From IMG/VR virus record IMGVR_UViG_3300002064_000002: 64,000 nucleotides of DNA. One strand, given 5' to 3'. Below, one piece after another: positions 49,899 through 64,000 of the stretch. Below the pieces are notes generated by a model, which worked only from the letters and a program-made list of their open reading frames with translations, made no database searches and was not told the DNA's origin. This stretch comes from a virus. Position 1 is the stretch's first letter, and each line of letters begins with the position of its first letter. A program made the position numbers and the translations under genes.

Positions 49899-50054
49899 AT
49901 GATAGTATTCATAGGGCTTATAATTTGGGTTTTACTAATGGTTTATGCTCCTGATTCTTATGAGAAATTAAAAGCATTTGTATTAGAGATATGGGAAGCT
50001 ATACACACTTGTATAGTTAGTATACTAGACATTTTAATGGACAATAAAAGATAA
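49899..50054 (+). CDS. Small membrane protein
   Basis: Likely start at ATG 49899, after the hairpin and leader. Confidence 0.45.
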   Translation: MIVFIGLIIWVLLMVYAPDSYEKLKAFVLEIWEAIHTCIVSILDILMDNKR

Positions 50055-50059
50055 ATGTT

Positions 50060-50281
50060 ATGAAATTTAAACCTGGAGATCGAATTAAAAGAATAGAAGG
50101 GAAAGAAACATTTTTAAAAACTGGAAATATTTATACTGTAGCAAATATGAATCCTCTTAATGACTGCAGAGTAATATTGGAAGGAGCTGATCATGATTCA
50201 ACTGATGATGAAGATCAAGGATTTTACGTAGATTATTTCAAGATGGTTACTTCTATTGATTTTTCTTACACAATTTATTAA
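50060..50281 (+). CDS. SH3/KOW-like FSYxIY-family protein, copy 1
   Basis: MKFKPGDRIKRI..GNIYTV..FKMVTSIDFSYTIY. Confidence 0.75.
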   Translation: MKFKPGDRIKRIEGKETFLKTGNIYTVANMNPLNDCRVILEGADHDSTDDEDQGFYVDYFKMVTSIDFSYTIY

Positions 50282-50292
50282 AACACACAGCA

Positions 50293-51579
50293 ATGAAATA
50301 TTTATGTATTGAGAATTCAGGACTCATTCTTCCTGATGATTTTAGTCTTATGGGTACATCTACTAAAGTAGGTAATAATAACAAAATAGGCCAATATGGA
50401 TCCGGTTTATGTTATGCTATAGGAGGACTTATGAGACCACCTCATAAATTACCTGTAGTATATTCTGGAAAAGAACAGATAACACTTGAAGCAAAAACTA
50501 TAGACTATAGAGATGCTCCAGTAAAAGTGCTACACGTTAATGGTGAAAAGACTTCTATTACTGAAAATCTTGGTAAAGAAGCTAAATGGTCTACATGGAT
50601 GCTTTGCAGGGAAATTCTGAGCAATGCCATAGATGAAGAAAATTTCAATTTATATCAAACTGATGAAATATTACCAATAGAAGATAAGAGTCAGATTTAT
50701 ATTTATATGAATGATGAGATAGATATGTTTCTAAAAAACTACAATCATTATTTTGCTTTTGATAGAAAAGAAGATTATACAGATGAAAAAGGTAATCGAT
50801 TCTTTTTAAAGAAATTTAAAAGCCCTATGGTAATATATCGTAAAGGCATCAGATGTTATGAAAATACTTATGCAGATGAATCTTTAGTAGATATAGATTT
50901 TGCTGATATTTATATTAATGAGTCTAGGGTAGCAGACATACATCAAATATATAGTAGAATTAAAGATGTGGTAAGTAATGCAGATGTTTCTGATAAAGTA
51001 ATGATAAAACTATTACAGCAAGGAAAAATTGATAAATCTCTTATTCCAGCTGTATCTAGTGTGTCTGATGAATTTTTTGAATCTATTAAAAGAATAAGCC
51101 AATTCACTAATATTATAACTAAAGAGATTGACCCTAATATAACTGGTTTAGAAGGAGATTCAGATATTGTATTACCTACTTCTTATTATCTAGAATTTCA
51201 AAAAAGAGGTTTTGTAGAAAATAAGTTTGAAATTATACAAGGGGCTCCAAGTGATTTTACTAAAAGTAAAAACATAGATCAAGATAAAATGAAAGAGATT
51301 AAATTTTATCTAAATCATTTCATGGAGAATAAAGGTATAAAAATACATGTAGGTAAATGGAGTAGTTCTGTTTATGATACTATACACAGTAATGAACATA
51401 ATTGTTTTTTCATAAAGAAACATATGTTTAATAATCGTGATACACCTACAATAGCTAGTAAGCTATTAAGAAATAGAAGTCAAGAATATTATTATAATAT
51501 ACTGGAGAAGAATTACAAAGAAGCTGTACTTGCTCAAGATTTTAACGAGCAACCAGTAGACGATTCTCTTCCATTCTAA
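50293..51579 (+). CDS. Circularly permuted GHKL ATPase with an SSB-like acidic tail
   Basis: IENSG and KIGQYGSGLCYAI precede REILSNAIDE; the protein ends PVDDSLPF. Confidence 0.7.
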   Translation: MKYLCIENSGLILPDDFSLMGTSTKVGNNNKIGQYGSGLCYAIGGLMRPPHKLPVVYSGKEQITLEAKTIDYRDAPVKVLHVNGEKTSITENLGKEAKWSTWMLCREILSNAIDEENFNLYQTDEILPIEDKSQIYIYMNDEIDMFLKNYNHYFAFDRKEDYTDEKGNRFFLKKFKSPMVIYRKGIRCYENTYADESLVDIDFADIYINESRVADIHQIYSRIKDVVSNADVSDKVMIKLLQQGKIDKSLIPAVSSVSDEFFESIKRISQFTNIITKEIDPNITGLEGDSDIVLPTSYYLEFQKRGFVENKFEIIQGAPSDFTKSKNIDQDKMKEIKFYLNHFMENKGIKIHVGKWSSSVYDTIHSNEHNCFFIKKHMFNNRDTPTIASKLLRNRSQEYYYNILEKNYKEAVLAQDFNEQPVDDSLPF

Positions 51580-51667
51580 GATGCTTTAGTTAATAATTCC
51601 GTTTTACAAGGCTCATCGCAATAATGTGGTGAGCCTTTTTATTCACATTTAAAAAATTAATACAGTT

Positions 51668-52135
51668 ATGGGTAAGAAGAAAAGTTCAAACGCAGAAATA
51701 GTTGAAGATTTAGATGCACAAATTGCTGCAATTGAATCTGGAGTAATGCCAGTAGGTGGAGTAACTACTACTACGTTACAAGGATTTGGTGATATTAATA
51801 ATATTACTGAATATCCTATTCTAAGAGCTGCTATGGCTAGTATATTAGTCAAGAGTGCAGCAGAAGAGAAAGCTGATAAATTATTAGCTGGTGAAGAAAC
51901 AGTGCCTGTTATTAAAATTGAAGGTAATACTCCAGATCAATGGACAGCCTTATTGAAGAACAGATATGTTGTGATAACCAATGATGCAGATCTGAAAGAA
52001 TTGAAAGAGCTTAGAGAAGAGTTTAGACAATTAGTAACAGATGAAGAGAAGCAAAAGATGGCAGAGAAAAAGAAGGAGAAGTTGCTGAAAAAATTTGCTG
52101 ACAGAGGTATTAACAATTCTACATTATTAAGATAA
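51668..52135 (+). CDS. Hypothetical protein
   Basis: 155 aa ORF after hairpin and leader. Confidence 0.6.
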   Translation: MGKKKSSNAEIVEDLDAQIAAIESGVMPVGGVTTTTLQGFGDINNITEYPILRAAMASILVKSAAEEKADKLLAGEETVPVIKIEGNTPDQWTALLKNRYVVITNDADLKELKELREEFRQLVTDEEKQKMAEKKKEKLLKKFADRGINNSTLLR

Positions 52136-52353
52136 TGGTACGCTTTAAACCAGGAGATAGGGTTAGGAGAATTGGTAGAAGTAATTCTTATATTAATAAA
52201 GGTAATTTAGCTACAGTAAGTGAAGTTTCTAAAGATCACAAAAGGATTCTTTTAGTAGAATATAAAGATTCTGGTTATGGAGTAGATTGTGGATTCTATT
52301 CTAATTATTTTGAACTTGTATCTTCTGCTAATTTTTCTTATTTAATCTATTAA
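52135..52353 (+). CDS. SH3/KOW-like FSYxIY-family protein, copy 2
   Basis: MVRFKPGDRVRRI..FELVSSANFSYLIY. Confidence 0.75.
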   Translation: MVRFKPGDRVRRIGRSNSYINKGNLATVSEVSKDHKRILLVEYKDSGYGVDCGFYSNYFELVSSANFSYLIY

Positions 52354-52476
52354 GTTAATTATTTAGTCCATTATACAGAGAGCGAGGTGAAAGCCTTGCT
52401 CTCTTTTTATTAACAATTAAAAAGACGAAGGAATAAGTAATATTATGTATATTGTGCAAACAATTTATCTAATATT

Positions 52477-53388
52477 ATGAAAGGAAAAATATACAGTTTG
52501 TCAGATCCATTTACATTAGAAGTAAGGTATATAGGATTTACTAGATCTACAATTAGTACTCGTTATAGTCAACATAAGCATGAAGCTATTAAGAAAAAAA
52601 AACTGAGTCATTTATATAATTGGTTTAGGGTTTGTATAGATAAAGGAAAATTACCACTGGTTGAAGTAAAAGAAGATAACATACCTATAGAAAAGTGGCA
52701 GGAGAGAGAACAACATTGGATAGACCAGTATGGGAATCTTACTAATCAAAAAAAAGGCGGGTGTGGAGTACATTTAAACACTAATAAAAAGGGCAGACTA
52801 AGAAGTATAGAAGCTAAAAGAATAGAAATAATACAATTAGATTTAAACGGAAATTACCTTAAAAGCTGGAGTTCTATGAGAAATGTAGAAAGACATTTTA
52901 GTGGGAAAAACACAGGATTACTAGCTAAAGCTAGTAAGACTATGGGAACAGCTTACGGCTATCTTTGGGTAAGAGGTGATGAATATGATTCTAATAAAGT
53001 TTATTTACCTAAGAATAAAGTAAAAATAGAAATATTTTTGTTTTGTGCATTTACTAGAAAATTTATAAAGAGGTATAATTGCAAAGCAGACTTAGATAGA
53101 GAATTAGATTTTGGGACTTCTACTGCTTGTTTAAGAAATAATCTATTATTAAGGAATACATATTACATTAGAGATAGCATAGTGGATAATTTAGTGCCTC
53201 CTACACCTACAGATGTATATCTATTCAACAAAAAGTACTATACTACTTACACTATTTTATGTAGAGAAAATAATATTCAGAATAAACTACATAACGTTAA
53301 GTTTAAAAAAAGTTTAATTACTAAAGCAGTAACTGAAGAAATGATACAACAACTAAGACTTTCTTTTAAAAACAGAAGAGGAAAATAA
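52477..53388 (+). CDS. Free-standing GIY-YIG homing endonuclease with a NUMOD1-like domain
   Basis: KIYSLSDP..RYIGFT..RYSQH..E..WI..LTN; IIQLDLNGNYLKSWSSM. Confidence 0.8.
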   Translation: MKGKIYSLSDPFTLEVRYIGFTRSTISTRYSQHKHEAIKKKKLSHLYNWFRVCIDKGKLPLVEVKEDNIPIEKWQEREQHWIDQYGNLTNQKKGGCGVHLNTNKKGRLRSIEAKRIEIIQLDLNGNYLKSWSSMRNVERHFSGKNTGLLAKASKTMGTAYGYLWVRGDEYDSNKVYLPKNKVKIEIFLFCAFTRKFIKRYNCKADLDRELDFGTSTACLRNNLLLRNTYYIRDSIVDNLVPPTPTDVYLFNKKYYTTYTILCRENNIQNKLHNVKFKKSLITKAVTEEMIQQLRLSFKNRRGK

Positions 53389-53416
53389 TTTTATTAACCG
53401 ATTAAATTTACACATC

Positions 53417-53629
53417 ATGCAAAAATCAGATACCCCCCACATTGAACTTAAAAGAGAAGACATTGTAGAGTTCAGACATTTGGCTTCTAAGACCAGGTTT
53501 GTAGTAAAACAAGTGCTAGGATCGGATGTACTTTTAGATAACCCTAAAAGTCCTAGAAGAAGACAAGGAAAAGATCTTCTTACTATGCCTATGAGAGATC
53601 TTGTTAAGATTAATGTTAAAGTGAATTAA
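53417..53629 (+). CDS. Small SH3/KOW-like protein without the FSYxIY tail
   Basis: LKREDIVEF..FVVKQV. Confidence 0.45.
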   Translation: MQKSDTPHIELKREDIVEFRHLASKTRFVVKQVLGSDVLLDNPKSPRRRQGKDLLTMPMRDLVKINVKVN

Positions 53630-53781
53630 CTTGGTATGTTATTTCAGAGTGGCAGATATCTATCTGCTGCTCTGTTTTTAAACCTTGAATTACAATGGAA
53701 ACAAATACAGATAAAGAAGATTTAACAATGCTCATAGCATTAGGTATAATTTTATTAGTGAATTTATTAAGCAGTTAAAGA

Positions 53782-54063
53782 ATGAATAAAAAATATTATA
53801 TATTAAAGAAAGGTAAAATGTTCTTCACTATAGAAGAAACTACTGAAGAAAGTAAGACTAGCGACTTACTTACAATAATGACAAGTATTATTTTATTTGG
53901 TTTATTAGGATTATATTCAGTAACGTATTCTACTACTTTATTCCCAGAAATTATATTGATAATTATAAGTGTAGTTTTTGTTCTTAAAAAGGGGAAAAGT
54001 GATAAAGAAGCAACTTATACTAAAGATGCTTTGATTATTAAACTGGAAAATGAACTGGAATGA
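53782..54063 (+). CDS. Membrane protein
   Basis: Two hydrophobic segments. Confidence 0.5.
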   Translation: MNKKYYILKKGKMFFTIEETTEESKTSDLLTIMTSIILFGLLGLYSVTYSTTLFPEIILIIISVVFVLKKGKSDKEATYTKDALIIKLENELE

Positions 54064-54254
54064 AATTTAAAAAAGGTGATAGAATAAAAAGAATTCATAA
54101 TAGTTCTTCATTAGAGAAAGGTAAAATTTATATTGTAAAAAAAATACACGGAACTTATTTGTCAGTAGAAGATAGTGCAAGAGAAAAACCGACTTATTTT
54201 TCTAAATATTTTGAACTGGTATCTGCAGCTAATTTTACTTACACTATTTATTAA
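54060..54254 (+). CDS. SH3/KOW-like FSYxIY-family protein, copy 3
   Basis: MKFKKGDRIKRI..FELVSAANFTYTIY. Confidence 0.75.
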   Translation: MKFKKGDRIKRIHNSSSLEKGKIYIVKKIHGTYLSVEDSAREKPTYFSKYFELVSAANFTYTIY

Positions 54255-54264
54255 ATCATTAATT

Positions 54265-54486
54265 ATGTTGAAAGAAGGAGATTTAAAAGTAGGAGATGAA
54301 GTTGTTGCTTTGGATACAGGTTATAGTAATAAATTGACTATTGGACACATTTATACAGTAAAAGATCTGGCAACTGAAGATAAACTTAGAAATGGCATTC
54401 TTCTACATGGCAGACCTAGTGCATATTGGCAAAGATATTCTAGTTTTAAACTAGTAACTAAAGAATTTTCATATTCTATTTATTAA
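54265..54486 (+). CDS. SH3/KOW-like FSYxIY-family protein, copy 4
   Basis: Start at ATG 54265: MLKEGDLKVGDEVVAL..FKLVTKEFSYSIY. Confidence 0.75.
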   Translation: MLKEGDLKVGDEVVALDTGYSNKLTIGHIYTVKDLATEDKLRNGILLHGRPSAYWQRYSSFKLVTKEFSYSIY

Positions 54487-54503
54487 CAATTAAAAACACA
54501 CAC

Positions 54504-55460
54504 ATGAAAAAAAATAAATTTGATGGTATAAGCGTAATGCTTATCATAGCAATAATAATTACACTAGTTTTTTTAGTACAAACACTTACAGCACAAGAAT
54601 CAGAAATTAGTTTTTGTAATAAAGAATGTACAAGTGTAGCATATCAATCTGCTTGTCTTCAATGTGAAGATGTTCGTATTGAAATTAATCCTGTTGTACC
54701 TTACACTATAAGTAATGATAGTCTTATAGTACAGTATAGTTCTAATGAAGAATTACAGATAACTATATATTTTACATTTGGTAGTTGTGTAGGTAGCAAT
54801 TGTGATCTAGATGTGGATCAACTACAGTACACAGTTTACTATACGCCTCCTTGTTGCGATCAATATATCTGTAGTTCAGAATATGATTGTACAATAGAGG
54901 AGACTTTTATAGATACTACTTTAAGTATATCTAATACTGGATGTAATGTTTATAATGTAGTAGAGCACATAGCCATACCACCAAGAGTAGATACTTTAGT
55001 TGTAGTGGATACAATTACATTAACACAAATAGATACTTTAGTTGTAGTAGAAACAGAGATTCAGATACAAATTGATACTATTACATTGTTAGAATTTGTG
55101 CCTATTACTGAATGGGATACTATTTATGTATATGATACAACTGTATTAGAAATAGTTTATAAAGAAGAATTAGTTGATGATATAGTTTATGTACCTAATG
55201 CAGTTAATCCTAATAATAGTAATTATGAGAATAGTTATTTTATGATATTTTCTAAAAAAGATTATTTAATAAAAGATTTAGAGATATTTGATAGATGGGG
55301 GAATTTAGTGCATGATTTACATATGACTAGTACTAATGTACAAGCATGGGACTGCACGTATAGAAATCAAAGCGTATCTGGAGTCTATAATTACAAATTT
55401 GAAGTAGATACTGGATCTGGATGGGTATTTTATAAAGGAAATTTTATAATTATTAAATAA
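54504..55460 (+). CDS. Secreted protein with a type B T9SS C-terminal domain (gliding-motility-associated CTD, CHU_C-like)
   Basis: Signal peptide ending LTA-Q; Cys-rich domain; D-T-[ILT] stalk; C-terminal YVPNAVNPN..F.I..LEIFDRWGNLV..WDCTY..GVYNYKF..KGNFIIIK. Confidence 0.85.
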   Translation: MKKNKFDGISVMLIIAIIITLVFLVQTLTAQESEISFCNKECTSVAYQSACLQCEDVRIEINPVVPYTISNDSLIVQYSSNEELQITIYFTFGSCVGSNCDLDVDQLQYTVYYTPPCCDQYICSSEYDCTIEETFIDTTLSISNTGCNVYNVVEHIAIPPRVDTLVVVDTITLTQIDTLVVVETEIQIQIDTITLLEFVPITEWDTIYVYDTTVLEIVYKEELVDDIVYVPNAVNPNNSNYENSYFMIFSKKDYLIKDLEIFDRWGNLVHDLHMTSTNVQAWDCTYRNQSVSGVYNYKFEVDTGSGWVFYKGNFIIIK

Positions 55461-55660
55461 TGATTTTTAAAAAAGGAGATTTAGTAAAAAGAATTAAAAG
55501 TAATTGGGGAGGAATTAATGTAGGAGATATTTATATTGTAGCAGAAGATACAAAGCCTGGTTTAAACCATGTTAAACTTACTATAGATTCTGAGATTAAT
55601 TATAGAAAAGACTTATTTAAGTTAATATCTAGTACACAATTCTCTTATACAATATATTAA
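55460..55660 (+). CDS. SH3/KOW-like FSYxIY-family protein, copy 5
   Basis: MIFKKGDLVKRI..FKLISSTQFSYTIY. Confidence 0.75.
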   Translation: MIFKKGDLVKRIKSNWGGINVGDIYIVAEDTKPGLNHVKLTIDSEINYRKDLFKLISSTQFSYTIY

Positions 55661-55662
55661 TT

Positions 55663-55875
55663 ATGAAAAGAAAATTATTTAAGAAAGGCGACAGAGTAAA
55701 AAGAATAAATAATTCTATTGGAAATATAATTAAAGGAAAAATCTACACTATATTAAAAGATGAAATTTCTGAACATCAAGAATTACTTTTAGTAGAATGT
55801 CCTAGTAAATATTACTATTATTCTAGCTCATTTAGATTAGTATCTTCTGTAGAATTTTCATACACAATATATTAA
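55663..55875 (+). CDS. SH3/KOW-like FSYxIY-family protein, copy 6
   Basis: LFKKGDRVKRI..FRLVSSVEFSYTIY. Confidence 0.75.
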   Translation: MKRKLFKKGDRVKRINNSIGNIIKGKIYTILKDEISEHQELLLVECPSKYYYYSSSFRLVSSVEFSYTIY

Positions 55876-55877
55876 TT

Positions 55878-56099
55878 ATGAAACAACGAACATTTAAAGT
55901 AGGAAACAAGGTAAAGAGAGTTCCAAATTATTGTGGAAATCTTTTTAAAAAGGATCAGATCTATACGATCTCAGAGTTAATACTACAAAGAGATAAAACT
56001 ATAAATCTAGGAATTAAAGGTGTACCTTATATAAATGGCTATGATTCTAATTTATTTGTACTTGTAGAAAAGACTGAATTTTCATACTCAATTTATTAA
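55878..56099 (+). CDS. SH3/KOW-like FSYxIY-family protein, copy 7
   Basis: TFKVGNKVKRV..FVLVEKTEFSYSIY. Confidence 0.75.
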   Translation: MKQRTFKVGNKVKRVPNYCGNLFKKDQIYTISELILQRDKTINLGIKGVPYINGYDSNLFVLVEKTEFSYSIY

Positions 56100-56153
56100 A
56101 ACAAACTATGAACGGAAACTTATAATAGATTTTATAATCCATAAATATATATT

Positions 56154-56876
56154 ATGAACCGTTTTTACATTTTAATAGTATTCACTATTCTAGTGAGTAC
56201 TATACAAGCACAAGAATTTCACTTCACTAAAACACTTGAAGTGGAAAGACATTTACAAACCAGGCATTTCAGCTATGAGACATTAGTTGGATTAGGTGGT
56301 TTATTTACAGAGATTAATACTCAGACAGGTAAAGTACAGAATGGAGTTAATTTTGCATTTAGTAAATTACCAAGACAAATTAGACCAGACGATATTAATC
56401 TTGATGTAGTATCAAATACTATTACTAAAAGACGTACTAAGTATATTGAAAGACATATGTTGTACAGAGGTTATCACCTTTATAGTGATGGAATAGATAT
56501 TAGTGGTAGATATGGTATTGGTACATCCAATGCTACTTTTATCACAGCAGGAGTTAATGTATCAGCTTATTTAAGTCCTGGTATATTGAATCATTTATTT
56601 ACTGATTTTGAACCTATTGAATTAGGAACTTTTACAACATTTAAGTGGTATGATGCAATAGCCGTTGGTTATAGTATAGATGCCACATACGAGTCTATTT
56701 ATTACAATAAATCAGTAGATCACAGTATTGACATTAAAGCTAATTTACTATTACAAAATGACAAGAAAACAAATGACAGATTTATGAGTCTGTACCTTAC
56801 AAAGTCATTGTATATAGGATCAAAAGCATTTAATGGATGGAGACTGGGTTTAGCAGTCAGTCTTCAAAAGAATTAA
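56154..56876 (+). CDS. Exported protein, predicted outer-membrane beta-barrel
   Basis: Signal peptide ending IQA-Q; amphipathic strands ITAGVNVSAY, AVGYSIDATY, HSIDIKANL and WRLGLAVSL. Confidence 0.5.
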   Translation: MNRFYILIVFTILVSTIQAQEFHFTKTLEVERHLQTRHFSYETLVGLGGLFTEINTQTGKVQNGVNFAFSKLPRQIRPDDINLDVVSNTITKRRTKYIERHMLYRGYHLYSDGIDISGRYGIGTSNATFITAGVNVSAYLSPGILNHLFTDFEPIELGTFTTFKWYDAIAVGYSIDATYESIYYNKSVDHSIDIKANLLLQNDKKTNDRFMSLYLTKSLYIGSKAFNGWRLGLAVSLQKN

Positions 56877-56935
56877 GATGAAGAATAAAAATACTATGAG
56901 CAAACACATTTTATTCAATCTTAAATTATAATATT

Positions 56936-57718
56936 ATGAATCGAGTTATAGCAATATTACTAATCATTACAGTACCATTTATTGGTATTGCACAGAGTAC
57001 TGAGCTTTTAAAGAAAAAGTACAGTCATACAGTTAAAGACCGGGCAAAATATCATAAGATCTCTAAAGACTTATTGCAGCAAGTAATGGAATCTTATATG
57101 AGATATACTACGCCAGGCCAGGACACACTATTTACTATTTACATTGAAGACCTATATACTACTACCAGTAGTCCATGGGTTGTATTAGACAATATGTCAA
57201 AGAAGATCATAAAATGGAATAATAGTATAAAGAAATGTACTGATAATATTGATTGTTGGAAGCATGCTTATTTTCCTAAGATAAAAGGTAGTCTTCATAA
57301 TCAACCAGATACTGATAGAGAATTACAGGATATGGATGGTTATTTTAAAGATGTACCAGTAGTTAAAGAAGCTGAGCCTGAACTTATTAATATAGAATTA
57401 GGAGCAAATGGTTTCAGGATTAAAGAATGTAAAAATGGATCATGCCCTAGTGATTTAGCTAAGCAGCCATATAAGATGCCAGAAGTAATTGTTACTGAAA
57501 TATTTGATGATGTTACCCAAAAGAACGTTCCAGTGGTACAATACTATGAAGAACAGATAAATCTTGAGTTAGGTCACTCTGATGCTATATTAGCACAATT
57601 TAACATGTGTATAGACAATAGAAACTTTGATAGTGCAAGATACCATCTCACTAGATGGAAACAAAAAGGAGAAAATATGGAGCTTTACGTAGCAGAGCTT
57701 GAGAAATTTTCTGATTAA
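56936..57718 (+). CDS. Exported protein, 260 aa
   Basis: Signal peptide ending GIA-Q. Confidence 0.6.
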   Translation: MNRVIAILLIITVPFIGIAQSTELLKKKYSHTVKDRAKYHKISKDLLQQVMESYMRYTTPGQDTLFTIYIEDLYTTTSSPWVVLDNMSKKIIKWNNSIKKCTDNIDCWKHAYFPKIKGSLHNQPDTDRELQDMDGYFKDVPVVKEAEPELINIELGANGFRIKECKNGSCPSDLAKQPYKMPEVIVTEIFDDVTQKNVPVVQYYEEQINLELGHSDAILAQFNMCIDNRNFDSARYHLTRWKQKGENMELYVAELEKFSD

Positions 57719-57741
57719 TTAACTTTTTAAAAACTAATAAC

Positions 57742-57930
57742 ATGGAAAAGATTATTTTAAAAAACGTTACAGTAGTAGGTAAGATAGACTTAGATGCTCT
57801 TAATGAAAGAGAAAGAAAAGTTAAGCAGAGAAGAGCAAAAAATAAAAAAAGAGAAAAAGTAAAACTGGTATTCAACCAGAGAAATTTACAAATAAAAAGC
57901 TTATTGGACAGGAAGTTCAATCAAGCTTAA
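57742..57930 (+). CDS. Small basic protein
   Basis: Lys/Arg-rich 62 aa ORF. Confidence 0.5.
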   Translation: MEKIILKNVTVVGKIDLDALNERERKVKQRRAKNKKREKVKLVFNQRNLQIKSLLDRKFNQA

Positions 57931-57982
57931 AGATGTCTTTTAATTGTTAGCCCTCTCATCAGAAATGGTGAGGGGGTGTTTT

Positions 57983-58126
57983 GGGAGGATGGCGGAATGG
58001 TAGACGCTAACCGGTCACTGGCGGTGAGAGTAGTTTAATTAGTTAAATAGTAACTGTATCCAGTAGAGCAGTGAAGGACTGATGTAACGTAATAACTCGT
58101 AGAGGTTCGATTCCTCTTCCTTCCCA
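57983..58126 (+). ncRNA. 144 nt tRNA-like RNA with class II D arm, no canonical anticodon loop and an expanded middle region
   Basis: Acceptor GGGAGGA/TCCTTCC(C); D arm GCG-GAATGGTAGA-CGC; T arm AGAGG-TTCGATT-CCTCT; about 90 nt lie between the D and T arms. Confidence 0.7.
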
Positions 58127-58322
58127 CTAAGTCATAGAAACATTAATAAAAATTCTGTTACGAATTACAGGTGCCATAGAGCACAAACTAAAGTAGTAGA
58201 GAATCTAATTATTAATCTGGATATGATTATTTATATACTATATAGTGCGACTATATGGTTTTTATTAACACATTTTTAAACAGCTTAAAACAAGCTAAAA
58301 ACAATTTAAAACATTTAAGATT

Positions 58323-58862
58323 ATGGAAAACAATGTAAATTTCCCAAGCACAGAAGCACCTTCAGTTTTAACTATTACTTCAGTAGAAGAAAAAACAGCT
58401 ACTGATGGTAGATTGTACAAAACTGTACGAGTAAGTCACACGCCATACAAGATGGTATTGGACTTTGCTACTAATGAAATGATTCCTGTAGCAGGAGATT
58501 CTATTAGCTCTGGTTTCAATGTATGGGAGCGTGATTCTGATACAATTGGTGGAAGAATTAATCCTGATTATGCTTCTTATAAAGAAGGAGTAAAGAAGTT
58601 AGGATCGATTGTTAAGAGCTTTGTAAAGCCTTATGAAATTGATGATATTATGAATGATACTATCAGAACAGTAAATACTGCTTCTGTAGTTGTTGTTGGT
58701 GATTCAACTGCTCCAGATTGGGATCTAGCTGTAAAGGCAGAATTCAGAAATCGTGGTCAAGAATTAGACTTTGAAGCTACAGAGCGTATTTCTGAGGCTA
58801 ATGTAGTACAAGATCTTCAAGCTCAAAGAGTTAAAGAAGCTAAGGCAGATGCTGCTCTATAA
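58323..58862 (+). CDS. Putative single-stranded DNA-binding protein (crAss-like OB fold)
   Basis: LGSIVKSFVKPYEI..RTVNTASVVVVGD pattern, recalled from crAss-like SSBs; near the polymerase gene. Confidence 0.45.
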   Translation: MENNVNFPSTEAPSVLTITSVEEKTATDGRLYKTVRVSHTPYKMVLDFATNEMIPVAGDSISSGFNVWERDSDTIGGRINPDYASYKEGVKKLGSIVKSFVKPYEIDDIMNDTIRTVNTASVVVVGDSTAPDWDLAVKAEFRNRGQELDFEATERISEANVVQDLQAQRVKEAKADAAL

Positions 58863-58937
58863 GAATAGGGATTAGGTTTGTAACAGAAGGTCTTCACTTA
58901 ATTGTGGAGACTTTCTTTTTTATTAAAAAACAAGACA

Positions 58938-59549
58938 ATGAAAAAACAATTATACTTCCAATTATTCTTTATTATATTAGGATTCACAATTGTGGGTTTT
59001 GATAGGATAGATGAAATAAGTACATTAGACAAGAATTTAATTTATGCTGCTGTATATACAGAGCAAGATCCTAGGTATACATCTGATTTTGAGATACAGC
59101 TCATAGTAGAATGTATCATTTACAAAAAGCATAAGTATATGAAAGATAGTTCATTTGCTGATTATTTTTTTAAGTATCCAGATCATTTTCAAGGTCTTAG
59201 AGATATTCAAAAATTTAATGATGCTAATTCTAGAAAAGCTACTACTAATAAAATTATACTGGCTAATAGAGAAAGATTAGTGAAAATCAAGAAAATAGTA
59301 GATGATAGAATTAAACAAGGTACTGCTAGACCTATAGAATATTACCATCATTCATACACAAAGAATATAAAATTTAGCGATGGCTCTACTAAGAAGTTAA
59401 ATACTAAGCATATTGAGTACGTGGAGTGTAAAGTAGAAGAAGGTACCCATATAAAACATACAGATAATTTGTATCACGATTTCTTTGAGGTGAAATCTCC
59501 ATCTGCAAAATATTACAGATATAGAAATATCCTCAAAACTATTTATTAA
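58938..59549 (+). CDS. SleB-like (Hydrolase_2) cell wall hydrolase with an N-terminal hydrophobic anchor
   Basis: LIYAAVYTE..IVECII..HFQG..EYYHH..HDFF; likely start ATG 58938. Confidence 0.55.
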   Translation: MKKQLYFQLFFIILGFTIVGFDRIDEISTLDKNLIYAAVYTEQDPRYTSDFEIQLIVECIIYKKHKYMKDSSFADYFFKYPDHFQGLRDIQKFNDANSRKATTNKIILANRERLVKIKKIVDDRIKQGTARPIEYYHHSYTKNIKFSDGSTKKLNTKHIEYVECKVEEGTHIKHTDNLYHDFFEVKSPSAKYYRYRNILKTIY

Positions 59550-59566
59550 CAATTAAAATCTAAGTT

Positions 59567-60586
59567 ATGTCAAAGACTACATTTAAAAAAAAGCTTTCCA
59601 GTAAAATAAAATATATGCCTTATGGCAATAGAGCCGTAGATATGTCTCATGTCAATACATTAAAAAGATCGATCCTGCAATATGGATTACTTAGATCTGT
59701 AGTTACTTTTAAGACTAAAATATTTTCTGGAGAAGGAAAAATTGAAGAATTTATAGGCGATGGCCAACATATGATTAAAGCAGCAGAAATGCTTGGTAAA
59801 GCACATGAGTTAACTGTTATTCAATACACTAAACCATTAGAAACTATTAAAGAAATAATTCTCTTTGTAGCCAGTCTTAATACTACTAGTAAAAAATGGA
59901 ATTTATCTGATTTTGTAAATATCTGGAAATATGAAAATATTGATTATGAAAAATTAGTAAAGTATAAAGTAGCTTATCCTTCTTTATATTATAGTCACCT
60001 TGCTATAGCATTGAACCCTAGTAATAATCATAAGACTTCTATAGGTAATATTATAAAGTCAGGAGATTTTAAAATTGCTAAGAAAACTCATGATATATCT
60101 AAGATGATATTAATTTTAGATCAACAGGAAGTAGATGTGATTTTAGCTAGTGTATTAGGGTATTTATCATTAAAGATAGAAGACAATAGTATGTTTATAG
60201 CTCATATTTTAAAAGGTAAAGGAGAAAAAGGTAATAATTGTATGGCTGGGAATACTTCTATATTTATAGATGCTGATCAAAAAGACGAAGATCCTTTTCA
60301 ATACCAAATTGATATGCAAAGTAAGATGGATAAGGTTACTAAAGATTTTGTAGAAGAAGTTATGAAGGCAGATAAAGAACATTATACTAAAATGGATAAT
60401 GCTAAATCTGCTGTTTATAGGAAGACTAGAACAAATGATGTAGCTGAGCAAATGAAGCAAAGCAATGCTTTAGAGGATACTATTACTAGTAAAGAATTCT
60501 TATTTGAGAAGTTAAATTTCTATCAGGATGACTCTATTATGTATGACAAGCTTCTCAAGATAGGAAGAGAAAAGAAGTTTATTTAA
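59567..60586 (+). CDS. ParB/Srx-like N-terminal domain fused to an unrelated C-terminal region
   Basis: NRAVDMSHVNTLKRSI..GLLRSVV..IGDGQHM. Confidence 0.6.
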   Translation: MSKTTFKKKLSSKIKYMPYGNRAVDMSHVNTLKRSILQYGLLRSVVTFKTKIFSGEGKIEEFIGDGQHMIKAAEMLGKAHELTVIQYTKPLETIKEIILFVASLNTTSKKWNLSDFVNIWKYENIDYEKLVKYKVAYPSLYYSHLAIALNPSNNHKTSIGNIIKSGDFKIAKKTHDISKMILILDQQEVDVILASVLGYLSLKIEDNSMFIAHILKGKGEKGNNCMAGNTSIFIDADQKDEDPFQYQIDMQSKMDKVTKDFVEEVMKADKEHYTKMDNAKSAVYRKTRTNDVAEQMKQSNALEDTITSKEFLFEKLNFYQDDSIMYDKLLKIGREKKFI

Positions 60587-60651
60587 TTAGTTAATATTAT
60601 AGAGTCACTACTACTACCAATAGTGGTGGCTCTTTTTTAAATAAAATAAAT

Positions 60652-60852
60652 ATGGCAAGAAAGAAAAGATTTAAACCAAGTGATAAGAATATGCATAAAT
60701 ATAATGTAATAGATAAAGGAGGACAGTATCCTATTTATATTAGAAAAGATGTGGGAACATACAGTACAATCACATTTGATGGTATTGTAGTAAACAGTAA
60801 TGATGAAAAAATTAATGAAGGAGACGTATTAAATCAAAACGAAGAATTATGA
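60652..60852 (+). CDS. Hypothetical protein
   Basis: ORF after a hairpin. Confidence 0.45.
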   Translation: MARKKRFKPSDKNMHKYNVIDKGGQYPIYIRKDVGTYSTITFDGIVVNSNDEKINEGDVLNQNEEL

Positions 60853-61430
60853 AAAGACCTAATATAGTAGACTTTGTTAGAGGAGGACTTCCAGATTATT
60901 GGAAATATTCTACAGCAATGTCTAAATATGCAGACTATTTAGAATTAGAACTTACTATAGGAAGAAAAGAAGAAACATCAGCTCATATTTTATTAGATGA
61001 AACTACTATAGAAGAATTTTTTGAGCAACTTACAATAGAAGAGCAATTAGAACTAATGACTAATAGTGCAGAATTAATGAATAGAGATAAGTCTCAGATA
61101 CTAAAAAAAGCTATGCTAACTTTAGTAACTGATGATATGCTTTCAGATACAAACTACACTTTATTAAAGAAAGGAAGTGTAACAATGGAAGACTATGAAA
61201 AGACTACTGTTAGAGGACCGGAAGCTTATAAAGGAGCTTTAGATGATATGCATCCAGGAGATATATCAGAAGATACATCTGAAAGCAATGCTATTGATAC
61301 TATACAATTACTTTTAGATAAAAAAATGGAGCAAGTAGATTGGCCTTCATCTGAAATCCAGACATATGCTCAAGGATTGTCTGATATGTATAATTATTTA
61401 CAGAAAGATAAAAGTTTTATTCACCATTAA
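60849..61430 (+). CDS. Hypothetical protein
   Basis: Coupled ORF. Confidence 0.5.
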   Translation: MKRPNIVDFVRGGLPDYWKYSTAMSKYADYLELELTIGRKEETSAHILLDETTIEEFFEQLTIEEQLELMTNSAELMNRDKSQILKKAMLTLVTDDMLSDTNYTLLKKGSVTMEDYEKTTVRGPEAYKGALDDMHPGDISEDTSESNAIDTIQLLLDKKMEQVDWPSSEIQTYAQGLSDMYNYLQKDKSFIHH

Positions 61431-61439
61431 AATAGAAAA

Positions 61440-63689
61440 ATGATATACACTTACGGATTTGAAATAGAGGGGAAAGGAATAGCAGGGATAGATTCGTTGG
61501 ATGACATTGCAAATCATTTACTATCATTGGAATATATTGGATTAGATACAGAAACTACTAGAAAGCATAAAAAATATACCTATAGTGAACAATGGTATAA
61601 AGCTGGTTTAGATCCGTATTTAACTGATATTCTAATGATACAGATGGGTAACGAAGAACATCAATATATATTTGATATGCGTTCTGAAAAATGTAAAGGA
61701 CCAGAATTCAAAGAGTTCTTGGAAAAGATTCTTACTGAGAAGAAATTGAAGAAGATACTCCACAATGCAAAGTTTGATTTAAAGCATATATTGCATAATT
61801 ATGAGATCTGGACAGAGAATATTTGGGATACTATGATATGTGAGCAGATACTGTATAATGGATTAAATTACAGAAATAGTTTAATGGATTTAGCTAAGAG
61901 ATATCTTGATGCTAAAGACGCTAATAAGATGAATCTTTTCAACGGTGATGATTATATTACTGAAGAAAAAGATAAGATACTTAGTGATGATGATATGTTC
62001 TTATTAGGTACGGTAGAAGAAGGTAATGATCAGATCATACTGGATAAGTCTGTTAGAAAAGAGTTCGTGGAGTGGGGCGATAAGCCTTTCACCTTGGAAC
62101 AAATTTATTATGGTAGCGACGACTGTATTTTACCATGTAAGATCTATAAGCTGCAAAGAGTTGGTAGAAGAATTAAGGATGAGCAATGGAGGCCAGATCT
62201 TGCATTTAGAATGGAAAATAAAGTTACTCAATGCTTAGCTGATATAGAGCTAGTAGGTATGCCTTTTGATGAAGCATTATGGAGAGATACTTATGCACAG
62301 AATGTTATTGTACTAGCAGAAAGAAAGAAGGTACTAGATGATTTTGTAATTAATAACTGTCCTGATTTTACTGGATCAATTGATATGTTTAGAAAAGAGC
62401 CTGTATGTGCTGTACAATGGTCTAGTTTTAAGCAAGTAGTTACATTATTTAAAAGATTAGGTATAGCTAGAAAGGAAAGGTCTAAGCAAACTAAGAGAAA
62501 AGAATGGACTGTGGGAGCTAAAGTAATGTTTAGGCAATTATCTAATGATCTTAAAATACAGTTTTATAAAAATGAAATGCCAGAGGATCTGGATCTTCTA
62601 GCTAATGACTATAAAGGCCTCATACTAGCTTACCTATTGTACAAGAAGTCAGAGCAGTTAACTACTACATTCGGATTGGATTGGTTAAAACATATACATC
62701 CGGTTACTGGTAGAATTCATACTAATTTTAGGCAGTATATGTCTACTGGTCGTGTATCTTCTTCTAGACCAAATTGCCAGCAGCTACCCAGTACTCCTTT
62801 ATTTAGGAGATGTTTTACTGACGGTACACCTTATGTGAACTGTGATTACGCTTCTCAAGAATCACGAGTCCTAGCAGATTTGTCTAAAAATGAGACTTTA
62901 ATAGATTTCTATAATAATGGACACCCTACATTCGGATCTGATCTTCATTCTTATACAGCTACTATGATGTATCGAGCATTACTCGGAGATTCAGATTTGG
63001 TCATTACTAAAAAAACAGATGCTGCTAAAAGAAATACAGCTAAAGGAGTAGGTTTTTCTATAGTATATGGAGCATCAGAATATTCTATAGCACAGAATTT
63101 AGGTATTACTGAAGAAGAAGGAGTAGCATTTATTAATTCTTATTTTGATGCTTACCCTGGATTAAGAGAACATTTTGAAAAAGGAAAATCTCATTTTAGA
63201 AAAAATGGATGGATAAGACTATGTCCTTTTTCTGATAAAAGATATTTTTTTAAACAATATGATGAGATGTGGAGACTCTTTAGAGAAGCAGTAGAATTGA
63301 GACCTCAAAGCTGGGAACATATGAATGCACAACAAAAAGAAGAATGTAAAGCTGTACTTAGAGAGACTACTAATTGGAATGATCTATGGAGGGAACATGC
63401 ATTTTTAAGAGGAGCTGGAGAACGTAAATCAATGAATTACTTTATCCAAGGATCTGCAGCTAGTCAATTAAAAATGGCTCTTATACTATTCTATAGAGAT
63501 AGAACAAGTAAGTCGCAGCATATATCACTCGTATGTCATGATGAGGCATTGGGAATGTCAGAAGATACAGATTTACTAGAACAGACCAGACTATTAGTAC
63601 AAAAATCTATGGAAGATGGTGGAGCTTATGTAGTAAAGTCAATACCTATGGTTGCCGAGTCTCAACTTTCCCTTATTTGGGAGCACTGA
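61440..63689 (+). CDS. polA: Family A DNA polymerase with a 3'-5' exonuclease domain
   Basis: LDTETT, HNAKFD, YGSDD (exonuclease); TGRVSSSRPNCQQLP, DYASQESRVLA, AKGVGFSIVYG, NYFIQGSAA, HDE. Confidence 0.95.
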   Translation: MIYTYGFEIEGKGIAGIDSLDDIANHLLSLEYIGLDTETTRKHKKYTYSEQWYKAGLDPYLTDILMIQMGNEEHQYIFDMRSEKCKGPEFKEFLEKILTEKKLKKILHNAKFDLKHILHNYEIWTENIWDTMICEQILYNGLNYRNSLMDLAKRYLDAKDANKMNLFNGDDYITEEKDKILSDDDMFLLGTVEEGNDQIILDKSVRKEFVEWGDKPFTLEQIYYGSDDCILPCKIYKLQRVGRRIKDEQWRPDLAFRMENKVTQCLADIELVGMPFDEALWRDTYAQNVIVLAERKKVLDDFVINNCPDFTGSIDMFRKEPVCAVQWSSFKQVVTLFKRLGIARKERSKQTKRKEWTVGAKVMFRQLSNDLKIQFYKNEMPEDLDLLANDYKGLILAYLLYKKSEQLTTTFGLDWLKHIHPVTGRIHTNFRQYMSTGRVSSSRPNCQQLPSTPLFRRCFTDGTPYVNCDYASQESRVLADLSKNETLIDFYNNGHPTFGSDLHSYTATMMYRALLGDSDLVITKKTDAAKRNTAKGVGFSIVYGASEYSIAQNLGITEEEGVAFINSYFDAYPGLREHFEKGKSHFRKNGWIRLCPFSDKRYFFKQYDEMWRLFREAVELRPQSWEHMNAQQKEECKAVLRETTNWNDLWREHAFLRGAGERKSMNYFIQGSAASQLKMALILFYRDRTSKSQHISLVCHDEALGMSEDTDLLEQTRLLVQKSMEDGGAYVVKSIPMVAESQLSLIWEH

Positions 63690-63710
63690 TTAACAATTAA
63701 AGAAAAAATA

Positions 63711-63974
63711 ATGAAGAGAGATAAACTAAGATTTATGTTGAATTTACATTTCAGAAAAGAACACGTAGAAAAGATCTTGTATAATGTATTAAGTAAGCAT
63801 AGATATGAAGGTATTAAAGGAAGTTCTTTTGCTAATATTAGTAGTTTTATAATGAATGCTTTTCATTGGGGTAGCAGTAAAGAAGGAGCTCATTACTGGA
63901 ACACTTTTCATGACTTTTATCCTAAAAAACCAAATGGAATATGTATTAGTACAAAAGGAATAATAGAAAAATAA
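63711..63974 (+). CDS. Hypothetical protein
   Basis: ORF after the polymerase; the next ORF starts at 63974 and runs off the window. Confidence 0.55.
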   Translation: MKRDKLRFMLNLHFRKEHVEKILYNVLSKHRYEGIKGSSFANISSFIMNAFHWGSSKEGAHYWNTFHDFYPKKPNGICISTKGIIEK

Positions 63975-64000
63975 TGATAATTAATAAAAAAGATATTGAA

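What the first reader, a model, noticed from the sequence alone, without database searches (positions are those of the whole stretch)
54504..55460. Phage-encoded substrate of the host type IX secretion system with a glycosylation-motif stalk
The protein has a Sec signal ending before Gln (the Bacteroidota pyroglutamate rule), a Cys-rich head, and a stalk. It carries eight D-[ST]-[LIT] sites (DSL, DTT, DTL, DTI, DTL, DTI, DTI, DTT), which match the Bacteroidota O-glycosylation motif. A small DNA duplication (AGATACTTTAGTTGTAGT twice, about 54990 and 55030) built part of the stalk. It ends in a clear type B T9SS CTD. Such CTDs route proteins to the cell surface (established). An early-region phage gene with this design suggests the phage displays its own protein on the infected cell, or jams the T9SS/gliding machinery to block superinfection or alter motility (inference). 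It lies outside the virion module.
Basis: partly seen in the sequence, partly recalled or inferred. Interest (0 to 1): 0.85.

Follow-up and report, generated by a model that had tools for sequence, protein, structure and literature searches.

The report
Phage-encoded type IX secretion cargo
An uncultured crAss-like phage carries a gene for an exported, cysteine-rich protein that ends in a genuine type B sorting tag of the host's type IX secretion system; it travels with a second phage-specific secreted protein, so the phage probably puts its own protein on the infected cell's surface. The general idea has been reported before and has never been tested.

Summary
ORF 54504-55460 (318 aa) has:
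- a Sec-type signal peptide ending LTA|Q;
- a head with 11 cysteines;
- a stalk of four 14-residue repeats carrying most of eight D-[ST]-[LIT] sequons (1.55 expected by chance);
- a C-terminal type B T9SS domain.

Support for the sorting domain: PF13585 scores 31.7 bits against a cut-off of 27. TIGR04131 scores 34.8 against 35. There are 1155 HMMER hits, all at subject C-termini. AlphaFold2 pLDDT is 92-98. The structure matches type B CTD models (TM 0.82).

The window is a crAss-like phage, and the gene sits in the replication arm, not the virion arm.

New here: the gene and a downstream secreted 240-aa protein are the only two genes shared with a distant contig (25-29% identity). That partner is not PorP/SprF-like. 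The cargo, the partner and a third secreted protein lie in a 5.4-kb island. All differences between two otherwise identical phage variants fall in this island, and the three genes are under purifying selection.

The function (surface display, exclusion, jamming) remains inference.

Phage T9SS cargo is already published (Bellas 2020; de Jonge 2019), and viral type B CTD proteins are auto-annotated in UniProt. This scan has also noted a similar cargo-plus-barrel cassette on another phage. I rate it a new variant of a known kind, of moderate interest.

The parts
54504..55460 (+). CDS of the 318-aa cargo protein (stop codon included)
   Evidence: 97% identical orthologue P0001 in L001; omega 0.20 between the two
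54504..54593 (+). Signal peptide, residues 1-30, with predicted cleavage LTA|Q (Bacteroidota Q-rule)
   Evidence: Read from the sequence. The Q-rule is from PMC5837995. Q at +1 is also seen in P0033 and in all six phage type B CTD ORFs with a readable N-terminus.
54594..54953 (+). Cysteine-rich head, residues 31-150, 11 Cys
   Evidence: the Cys pattern is partly conserved in P0033; AlphaFold2 gives beta strands at residues 53-113 with pLDDT 63-81
54984..55151 (+). Stalk: four degenerate 14-residue units, each starting x-x-D-T-[LI], carrying six of the eight sequons
   Evidence: units 1 and 2 are 67% identical in DNA; pLDDT below 50
54989..55006 (+). First copy of the exact 18-nt duplicate
55031..55048 (+). 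Second copy of the exact 18-nt duplicate
55176..55457 (+). Type B T9SS C-terminal sorting domain, residues 225-318
56154..56876 (+). Partner gene: 240-aa secreted protein (signal ends QA|Q). The only other gene shared with the distant relative L002. A candidate outer-membrane beta protein.
   Evidence: omega 0.07; not PorP/SprF
56936..57718 (+). Third secreted protein (260 aa, signal ends IA|Q) in the same unit. Not conserved in L002.
   Evidence: omega 0.12
53645..53750 (+). 13-bp terminator-like hairpin (53645-53674), then an 11/12 promoter-like site (53722-53750) that opens the unit holding the three secreted-protein genes
   Evidence: These are consensus matches only. By eye, the next GC-rich hairpin followed by TGTTTT is at about 57951-57985.
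53429..58831 (.). Variable island: every one of the 71 mismatches between the window and L001 falls here. The flanks 49998-53428 and 58832-64000 are identical apart from one 288-nt indel.
   Evidence: run X2 shows the same pattern

Best explanation
The gene encodes a genuine substrate of the host's type IX secretion system, made by a crAss-like phage of a Bacteroidota host.

Proposed path:
1. Sec export.
2. Signal peptidase I cuts after LTA and exposes Gln, which the host cyclase would turn into pyroglutamate.
3. The 11-Cys head folds with disulfides in the periplasm. The D-T-[LI] stalk may be O-glycosylated there.
4. The C-terminal type B domain is recognised by the host translocon and a shuttle protein.
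5. The protein ends up on the cell surface. It is probably held there by the co-inherited 240-aa secreted partner or by a host PorP/SprF-type protein.

The cargo, the partner and a third secreted protein form one transcription-unit-sized island that phage variants exchange.

The most likely purpose is to remodel the infected cell's surface, for example by masking or competing with T9SS-dependent surface adhesins that serve as phage receptors (superinfection exclusion).

Shown here: the domain identity, the phage context, the conserved pairing, purifying selection and the island behaviour. Inferred: every step of export, the glycosylation, the anchoring and the purpose.
For: CTD identity:
- PF13585 scores above its gathering cut-off.
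- 1155 HMMER hits at E<=1e-3 match through residues ~215-318; in the 150 listed, the match ends at or near the subject's C-terminus.
- All 75 sampled hits carry PF13585.
- 10 of the 11 most conserved columns are kept.
- pLDDT is 92-98.
- The top AFDB-cluster matches are nearly all type B CTD proteins; the best domain match has TM 0.82 and rmsd 2.5 A.
- The only PDB sequence match is the CTD of the Aureispira T9SS substrate GhpA.

Export:
- The signal peptide has Q at +1.
- The Cys count is even (12) in both the window protein and P0033.

Host phylum:
- Relatives of the large terminase are crAss-like phages with Bacteroides, Flavobacterium, Cellulophaga or Azobacteroides hosts.

Module:
- The cargo and the partner are the only genes shared between the window and L002, at 24% and 29% identity.
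- dS is about 0.05 in the three secreted-protein genes and 0 in the flanking genes, with omega 0.07-0.20.

Established background:
- Type B cargo binds PorP-like proteins for anchorage (PMC9143113) and needs cognate shuttles (PMC12618676).
- Resistance to tailed Flavobacterium phages usually maps to T9SS and gliding genes (PMC12781566).
Against: - TIGR04131 falls 0.2 bits under its cut-off.
- Two conserved motifs are degenerate. PNxDGxND reads PNNSNYEN, and WDG reads WDC. In SprB, mutating any one of the five motifs stopped secretion.
- The host is unknown.
- No RNA run holds the stretch.
- Both phage variants come from one sample and study.
- The partner has no detectable relation to PorP/SprF and lacks Cys, so it lacks SprF's twin-Cys tail.
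- The partner's model is too poor to call it a barrel: pLDDT 38.9.
- A third partner homologue (L004) has no CTD gene within the 720 nt upstream that the short contig holds.
Confidence: 0.7

Rival explanations
1. Decoy or jammer. The protein is not meant to be displayed. Its slightly degenerate CTD engages a host shuttle or the translocon unproductively. This blocks export of host type B adhesins such as SprB-like proteins, which stops gliding and removes phage receptors.
For: Motifs A and C deviate from the consensus at positions that homologues conserve. Single-motif mutants of the SprB CTD are made but not secreted. T9SS and gliding genes are the usual resistance loci for tailed Flavobacterium phages.
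Against: 10 of the 11 most conserved CTD columns are intact, and the fold is predicted with very high confidence. A jammer would not need a conserved disulfide-rich head, a stalk and a co-inherited partner, all under purifying selection.
Confidence: 0.12
2. A periplasmic or envelope protein that uses the CTD fold only as a binding module. After Sec export it stays in the envelope and works with the 240-aa partner and the other membrane proteins of the unit, for example in lysis, envelope remodelling or DNA-entry exclusion, without passing through the T9SS.
For: The unit also encodes a 93-aa membrane protein (53782-54063) and a third secreted protein. The partner is unrelated to known T9SS shuttles. 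The CTD fold is a generic Ig-like sandwich.
Against: The match is at family level in sequence, not just in fold. The domain sits at the extreme C-terminus, as in all 150 listed hits.
Confidence: 0.12
3. Host-derived passenger DNA, a misassembly or a decaying gene with no role for the phage.
For: The CDS has 27.9% G+C against 33.6% for the window. No relatives exist beyond two protein clusters.
Against: A second assembly has the same gene order. The gene is flanked by the phage's own small-gene family. Its omega is 0.20, with an intact frame in both variants. The L001 stretch of this arm is itself 30% G+C. The head and partner families were not found in 401 Bacteroidota genomes or in IMG/VR.
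Confidence: 0.03

Closest known systems
Type B CTD substrates of the T9SS with cognate PorP/SprF-like shuttle or anchor proteins (SprB/SprF, Fjoh_3952/Fjoh_3951 in Flavobacterium johnsoniae; PG1035/PorP in Porphyromonas gingivalis; PMC12618676, PMC9143113)
   Same: Both have an N-terminal Sec signal, a C-terminal ~90-residue PF13585/TIGR04131 domain with motifs B, D and E intact, and a gene for a secreted partner close downstream on the same strand.
   Different: This one is encoded by a phage. It is a small 318-aa protein with a novel head. Motifs A and C are degenerate. The partner is shorter (240 aa against about 315-345 aa), has no PorP/SprF signal in Pfam, NCBIfam or hhalign, and has no cysteines where SprF has a functional twin-Cys tail.
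Phage-encoded T9SS cargo of 'Cryophage' (Bellas et al. 2020, PMC7468147) and T9SS sorting-domain proteins in gut phage cluster 2 (de Jonge et al. 2019, PMC6949934)
   Same: Uncultured phages of Bacteroidota carry secreted proteins with T9SS sorting domains. In Cryophage these genes are among the variable 'island' genes between near-identical phage variants, as they are here.
   Different: The Cryophage domains are type A, on enzymes (an endoglucanase, a GH39) and a PA14 protein. Here the domain is type B, on a non-enzymatic Cys-rich protein with a conserved partner gene. None of these has been tested experimentally.
Viral proteins auto-annotated 'Gliding motility-associated C-terminal domain' (BFVD/UniProt: Virus NIOZ-UU157, uncultured Caudovirales phages) and the SprB-repeat/PKD/CHU_C proteins of the 635-642 kb phages LR745206.1 and LR756502.1
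   Same: They have a type B CTD at the C-terminus of a phage-encoded protein that carries a signal peptide.
   Different: Their passenger domains are unrelated. The partner family of this window was not found next to them.

Membership tests
T9SS type B C-terminal sorting domain (PF13585 CHU_C / TIGR04131) | Family HMM match above the curated cut-off | tested here: met
   PF13585 scores 31.7 bits against 27. TIGR04131 scores 34.8 against 35, marginally under. All 75 sampled reciprocal hits carry PF13585.
T9SS type B C-terminal sorting domain (PF13585 CHU_C / TIGR04131) | The domain lies at the extreme C-terminus of the protein | tested here: met
   Residues 230-317 of 318. In the 150 listed hits the match ends at or near the subject's C-terminus.
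T9SS type B C-terminal sorting domain (PF13585 CHU_C / TIGR04131) | Five conserved motifs A-E, each needed for SprB CTD secretion (PMC12618676) | tested here: inconclusive
   B (IFDRWGNLV), D (GVYNY) and E (KGNFIIIK) are present. A is partial (PNAVNPNNSNYEN, no DG). C is partial (WDC in place of WDG). 10 of the 11 columns that are at least 90% conserved are kept. The paper's motif logos could not be read, because figures are not held.
T9SS type B C-terminal sorting domain (PF13585 CHU_C / TIGR04131) | Ig-like beta-sandwich fold of CTDs | tested here: met
   pLDDT 92-98. TM 0.82 and rmsd 2.5 A to a 98-aa type B CTD model. Domain-level hits to substrate CTDs in translocon structures 8glk, 8gl6 and 8gl8.
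T9SS substrate (functional class) | N-terminal Sec signal peptide | tested here: met
   An n-h-c pattern with LTA|Q, read from the sequence. No dedicated predictor was available.
T9SS substrate (functional class) | Host has a T9SS, and export depends on it | not testable with these tools
   Only the host phylum is inferred, from terminase relatives. No host genome is held.
PorP/SprF family (PF11751), considered for the 240-aa partner | Sequence or profile similarity to PorP/SprF | tested here: not met
   No Pfam or NCBIfam hit at E<=1. An HMM of 12 PorP/SprF proteins gives E about 1. hhalign gives 11% probability, over the signal peptide only.
PorP/SprF family (PF11751), considered for the 240-aa partner | [quoted passage not shown] | tested here: not met
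   The partner has no cysteine.
Bacteroidota general O-glycosylation substrates | D-(S/T)-(A/I/L/V/M/T) sequon on an exported protein (PMC8550257) | tested here: met
   Eight sequons against 1.55 expected. Seven lie in the 100 aa before the CTD, against a maximum of 4 in 98 homologues.
Bacteroidota general O-glycosylation substrates | A glycan is actually attached | not testable with these tools
   This needs glycoproteomics in a host. Only 3 sequons remain in the distant relative P0033.
crAss-like phages (Crassvirales) | Large terminase, portal and major capsid related to crAss-like phages | tested here: met
   TerL matches phrog_6681 at 3.5e-78 and the portal matches phrog_6547. The best-ranked tblastn matches, 116 covering at least 80% of TerL, are crAss-like phages at 26-29% identity. 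The family level was not resolved.

The most novel reading that the evidence does not exclude
The cargo and the 240-aa protein form a self-contained, phage-borne surface-display cassette. The partner would be a new kind of outer-membrane anchor or shuttle for type B CTDs, unrelated to PorP/SprF and not tied to the gliding track. This would let the phage plant its own protein on any T9SS-bearing host. The cassette would be swapped between phage variants as an island under host-range or exclusion pressure.
Probability: 0.2. Interest if true: 0.75.

Novelty: new variant of a known kind. Interest (0 to 1): 0.5.

Why it matters
T9SS-dependent surface proteins drive gliding, adhesion and virulence in Bacteroidota, and they are the usual route to phage resistance in flavobacteria. 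A phage that loads its own cargo into this pathway, with its own conserved partner, would show that phages rewire this surface machinery during infection.

It would also offer a compact natural tag-plus-partner pair for studying how type B signals are recognised and anchored. The case is testable by heterologous expression in Flavobacterium johnsoniae.

Its weight is limited. The idea is already published for type A signals, the host is unknown, and all the data come from one sample.

Tried and rejected
- Near-identical DNA in GenBank phages: none.
- Relatives of the head or the partner in IMG/VR by back-translated patterns: none.
- Tandem Repeats Finder on the stalk: nothing. The repeat is too degenerate.
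- PHROGs for the cargo, the partner and the third protein: no family.
- Partner as PorP/SprF: rejected.
- Partner fold: the AlphaFold2 model is too poor to search, pLDDT 38.9. The Atlas's own low-confidence model resembles small OMP barrels at TM 0.5-0.6; this is a lead only.
- Partner in the PDB by sequence: none.
- Partner in 401 Bacteroidota genomes: three weak hits that turned out to be off-frame matches over HU-like genes.
- PorP/SprF in the two huge phages: none, and the control genomes did not ring either.
- Passenger region in the ESM Atlas: no usable feature hit.
- Foldseek of the whole model against the PDB: only weak Ig-like matches.
- Own genome: not held.
- RNA evidence: none on record.
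- A spanin-like reading was considered and dropped. There is no coiled coil and no lipobox, and the domain match is at family level.

Full report
**The gene and its features**

The ORF listing and the raw sequence show an ATG-started ORF at 54504-55460 on the + strand, 318 aa. It starts 18 nt after the preceding small gene.
- The N-terminus has a basic n-region, about 18 hydrophobic residues, and LTA|QES. That is a signal peptidase I pattern with Gln at +1, the Bacteroidetes Q-rule (PMC5837995).
- There are 12 cysteines, 11 of them in residues 38-147.
Shuffling the protein gives 1.55 on average, and none of 20,000 shuffles reaches 8. The density is about eight times that of the window's other long ORFs.
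- Six of the eight sites lie in residues 163-213. I resolve that stretch into four degenerate 14-residue units, each beginning x-x-D-T-[LI]. The exact 18-nt duplicate at 54989 and 55031 is the conserved core of units 1 and 2.
- The enrichment is therefore real, but it is largely one repeat that has been copied.
- Seven sequons in the 100 residues before the CTD exceed the maximum of 4 in 98 homologues.

**The C-terminal domain is a type B T9SS sorting domain**
- Pfam PF13585 scores above its gathering cut-off. NCBIfam TIGR04131 scores 0.2 bits below its cut-off.
- An exhaustive HMMER search of 1.84 billion representatives gives 1155 hits at E<=1e-3. In the 150 listed, the match runs through residues ~215-318 of the query and ends at or near the subject's C-terminus. 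All 75 hits that I sampled carry PF13585.
- In the alignment the protein keeps 10 of the 11 columns that are at least 90% conserved. The exception is the G of WDG, which is C here. The PNxDGxND block is also weakened.
- AlphaFold2 models residues 225-318 at pLDDT 92-98, the head at 63-81 and the stalk below 50.
- Foldseek against AFDB clusters returns almost only 'gliding motility-associated C-terminal domain' or type B sorting proteins. The best domain match has TM 0.82 and rmsd 2.5 A.
- The only PDB sequence match is the CTD of the Aureispira grappling-hook protein GhpA.

**Context**
- The - strand arm holds the large terminase, the portal, the major head protein and a 1813-aa virion protein.
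- The + strand arm holds a GIY-YIG endonuclease, a ParB-like protein and a family A DNA polymerase. The gene lies in this arm.
- Terminase relatives are crAss-like phages and phages of Bacteroides, Flavobacterium, Cellulophaga and Azobacteroides, at 26-29% identity. A Bacteroidota host is therefore likely. No closer host call is possible.
- A 13-bp terminator-like hairpin at 53645-53674 and an 11/12 promoter-like site at 53722-53750 open a unit that runs to a hairpin near 57951-57985. The unit contains a small membrane protein, members of the phage's small-gene family, the cargo gene, the 240-aa secreted protein and a 260-aa secreted protein.

**Relatives and the conserved pair**
- Only two protein clusters share the head. 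P0001 is 97% identical and lies on the 20-kb contig L001. P0033 is 294 aa, 24-25% identical over nearly its full length, and lies on the 4.1-kb contig L002.
- In L002 the gene is followed 213 nt downstream by a 230-aa secreted protein that is 29% identical (E 2e-39) to the window's 240-aa protein at 56154-56876.
- A BLAST of all ORFs shows that these two are the only genes the two loci share.
- The partner family has only three clusters among 5.8 billion proteins. The third (L004, 2.5 kb) has no CTD gene in the 720 nt upstream that the contig holds.
- The partner has no Pfam, NCBIfam, PHROG or PDB match.
- I took 12 PorP/SprF proteins from four Bacteroidota genomes. An HMM of them scores the partner at E about 1, and hhalign gives 11% probability over the signal peptide only.
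- The partner has no cysteine, whereas SprF works through a twin-Cys tail (PMC12635249).
- Its AlphaFold2 model is poor (pLDDT 38.9), though it shows long beta hairpins over residues 103-237. 'Barrel' therefore remains a lead.
- The partner was not found in 401 sampled Bacteroidota genomes.

**Variation**
- The window and L001 are identical over 49998-53428 and over 58832-64000, apart from one 288-nt indel.
- All 71 mismatches fall in 53429-58831. A rearrangement of the small-gene paralogues lies directly downstream of the cargo gene.
- The cargo gene holds 19 of the 34 mismatches in the 5473-nt aligned segment that contains it (binomial P = 5e-7).
- Nei-Gojobori estimates are dS 0.054 and omega 0.20 for the cargo, dS 0.048 and omega 0.07 for the partner, and dS 0.059 and omega 0.12 for the third secreted protein. 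The GHKL-like, GIY-YIG and polymerase genes show zero differences.
- The unit is thus an exchanged island under purifying selection. This is the same behaviour Bellas et al. described for the T9SS cargo genes of Cryophage.
- Caveat: the runs that hold the sequence come from a single algae-metagenome sample and study. One of them may be the window's own source.

**How common is this?**
- Literature: Bellas et al. 2020 reported three type A CTD cargo genes in a phage and called it unique. De Jonge et al. 2019 noted T9SS sorting-domain proteins in a gut phage lineage. Matrishin et al. 2023 noted Q-rule signal peptides in Porphyromonas phages. I found no experimental test of any of these.
- GenBank phages: among 50,697 records, type B CTDs are detectable in three, and none is a cultured isolate. 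Two of them are 635-642 kb phages. They encode 1147- and 1205-aa proteins with PKD and CHU_C domains, plus SprB repeats in one and a Reelin-type domain in the other.
- IMG/VR: a narrow exact-motif scan found seven loci, all encoding C-terminal CTD ORFs; six have a signal peptide (the seventh is cut by the contig end). Some sit among thymidylate synthase, ribonucleotide reductase and helicase genes.
- BFVD holds seven viral matches, several already auto-named as this domain. The ESM Atlas has a 107-member viral CHU_C cluster.
- This scan's earlier notes describe a similar cargo-plus-barrel-plus-third-protein cassette on another phage (e1-3262260). I could not test that note. It is not independent support.

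**Mechanism**
- The best reading, at confidence 0.7 for the export route, is a real Sec-plus-T9SS type B cargo displayed on the infected cell. It would be held by the phage partner or by a host PorP-like protein.
- Surface remodelling or superinfection exclusion is the likeliest purpose. T9SS and gliding genes are the usual resistance loci for tailed Flavobacterium phages.
- The rivals are a decoy that jams shuttles (0.12), an envelope protein that uses the fold without T9SS transit (0.12), and junk or misassembly (0.03).
- Every step from export to purpose is inference.

**Verdict**

I class it as a new variant of a known kind, with interest 0.5.

Noticed in passing
window 50060-56099: A family of 64-73-aa proteins ending F-[ST]-Y-x-I-Y flanks the cargo gene on both sides. 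Directly downstream, the window (55471-55850, 380 nt) and L001 (5474-5698, 225 nt) differ by a rearrangement among these paralogues: two genes of 66 and 70 aa against one of 86 aa.
   Followed up: partly
window 53429-58831: All mismatches between the window and the near-identical contig L001 fall in this 5.4-kb island. The flanks are identical, which suggests the unit was imported by recombination from a relative that differs by about 5% at silent sites.
   Followed up: yes
L005 872-4315 (LR756502.1) and L006 698-4315 (LR745206.1): Two 635-642 kb uncultured phages encode 1147- and 1205-aa proteins with PKD and type B CHU_C domains, plus ten SprB repeats in one and a Reelin-type domain in the other. 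Each genome has three CTD-like places. No PorP/SprF gene was found in either genome.
   Followed up: partly
L008 2300-3796, L011 1356-3413, L013 5628-6167 (IMG/VR): Type B CTD cargo genes sit among thymidylate synthase, ribonucleotide reductase, helicase and (by eye) queuosine-pathway-like genes. They lie near a large signal-peptide protein whose N-terminus looks like a TonB-dependent receptor; that resemblance was not verified.
   Followed up: partly
L007 1436-2565, L010 5580-6709 (IMG/VR): Two signal-peptide proteins in tandem (184 aa and a 191-aa CTD protein) lie about 0.7 kb downstream of a lysozyme-like gene. The same 191-aa protein occurs on contigs of 8, 185 and 294 kb.
   Followed up: no
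window 15591-15677 (-): ARAGORN calls a tRNA with anticodon CTA (an amber-reading suppressor type) inside the 1813-aa virion-protein ORF. It may be a false call, or it may relate to the stop-codon recoding known in crAss-like phages.
   Followed up: no
window 60092/60093 versus L001 9942-10229: L001 has 288 nt here that are absent from the window, inside the ParB-like region. L001 has genes of 263 and 170 aa where the window has one of 339 aa.
   Followed up: no
L014-L047 (genome contigs): The exact motif IFDRWGNLVH of this CTD occurs in 34 bacterial genomes, all Bacteroidota where the phylum is named and mostly Saprospiraceae or Lewinellaceae. This is a weak hint at the origin of the CTD or at the host clade.
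   Followed up: no
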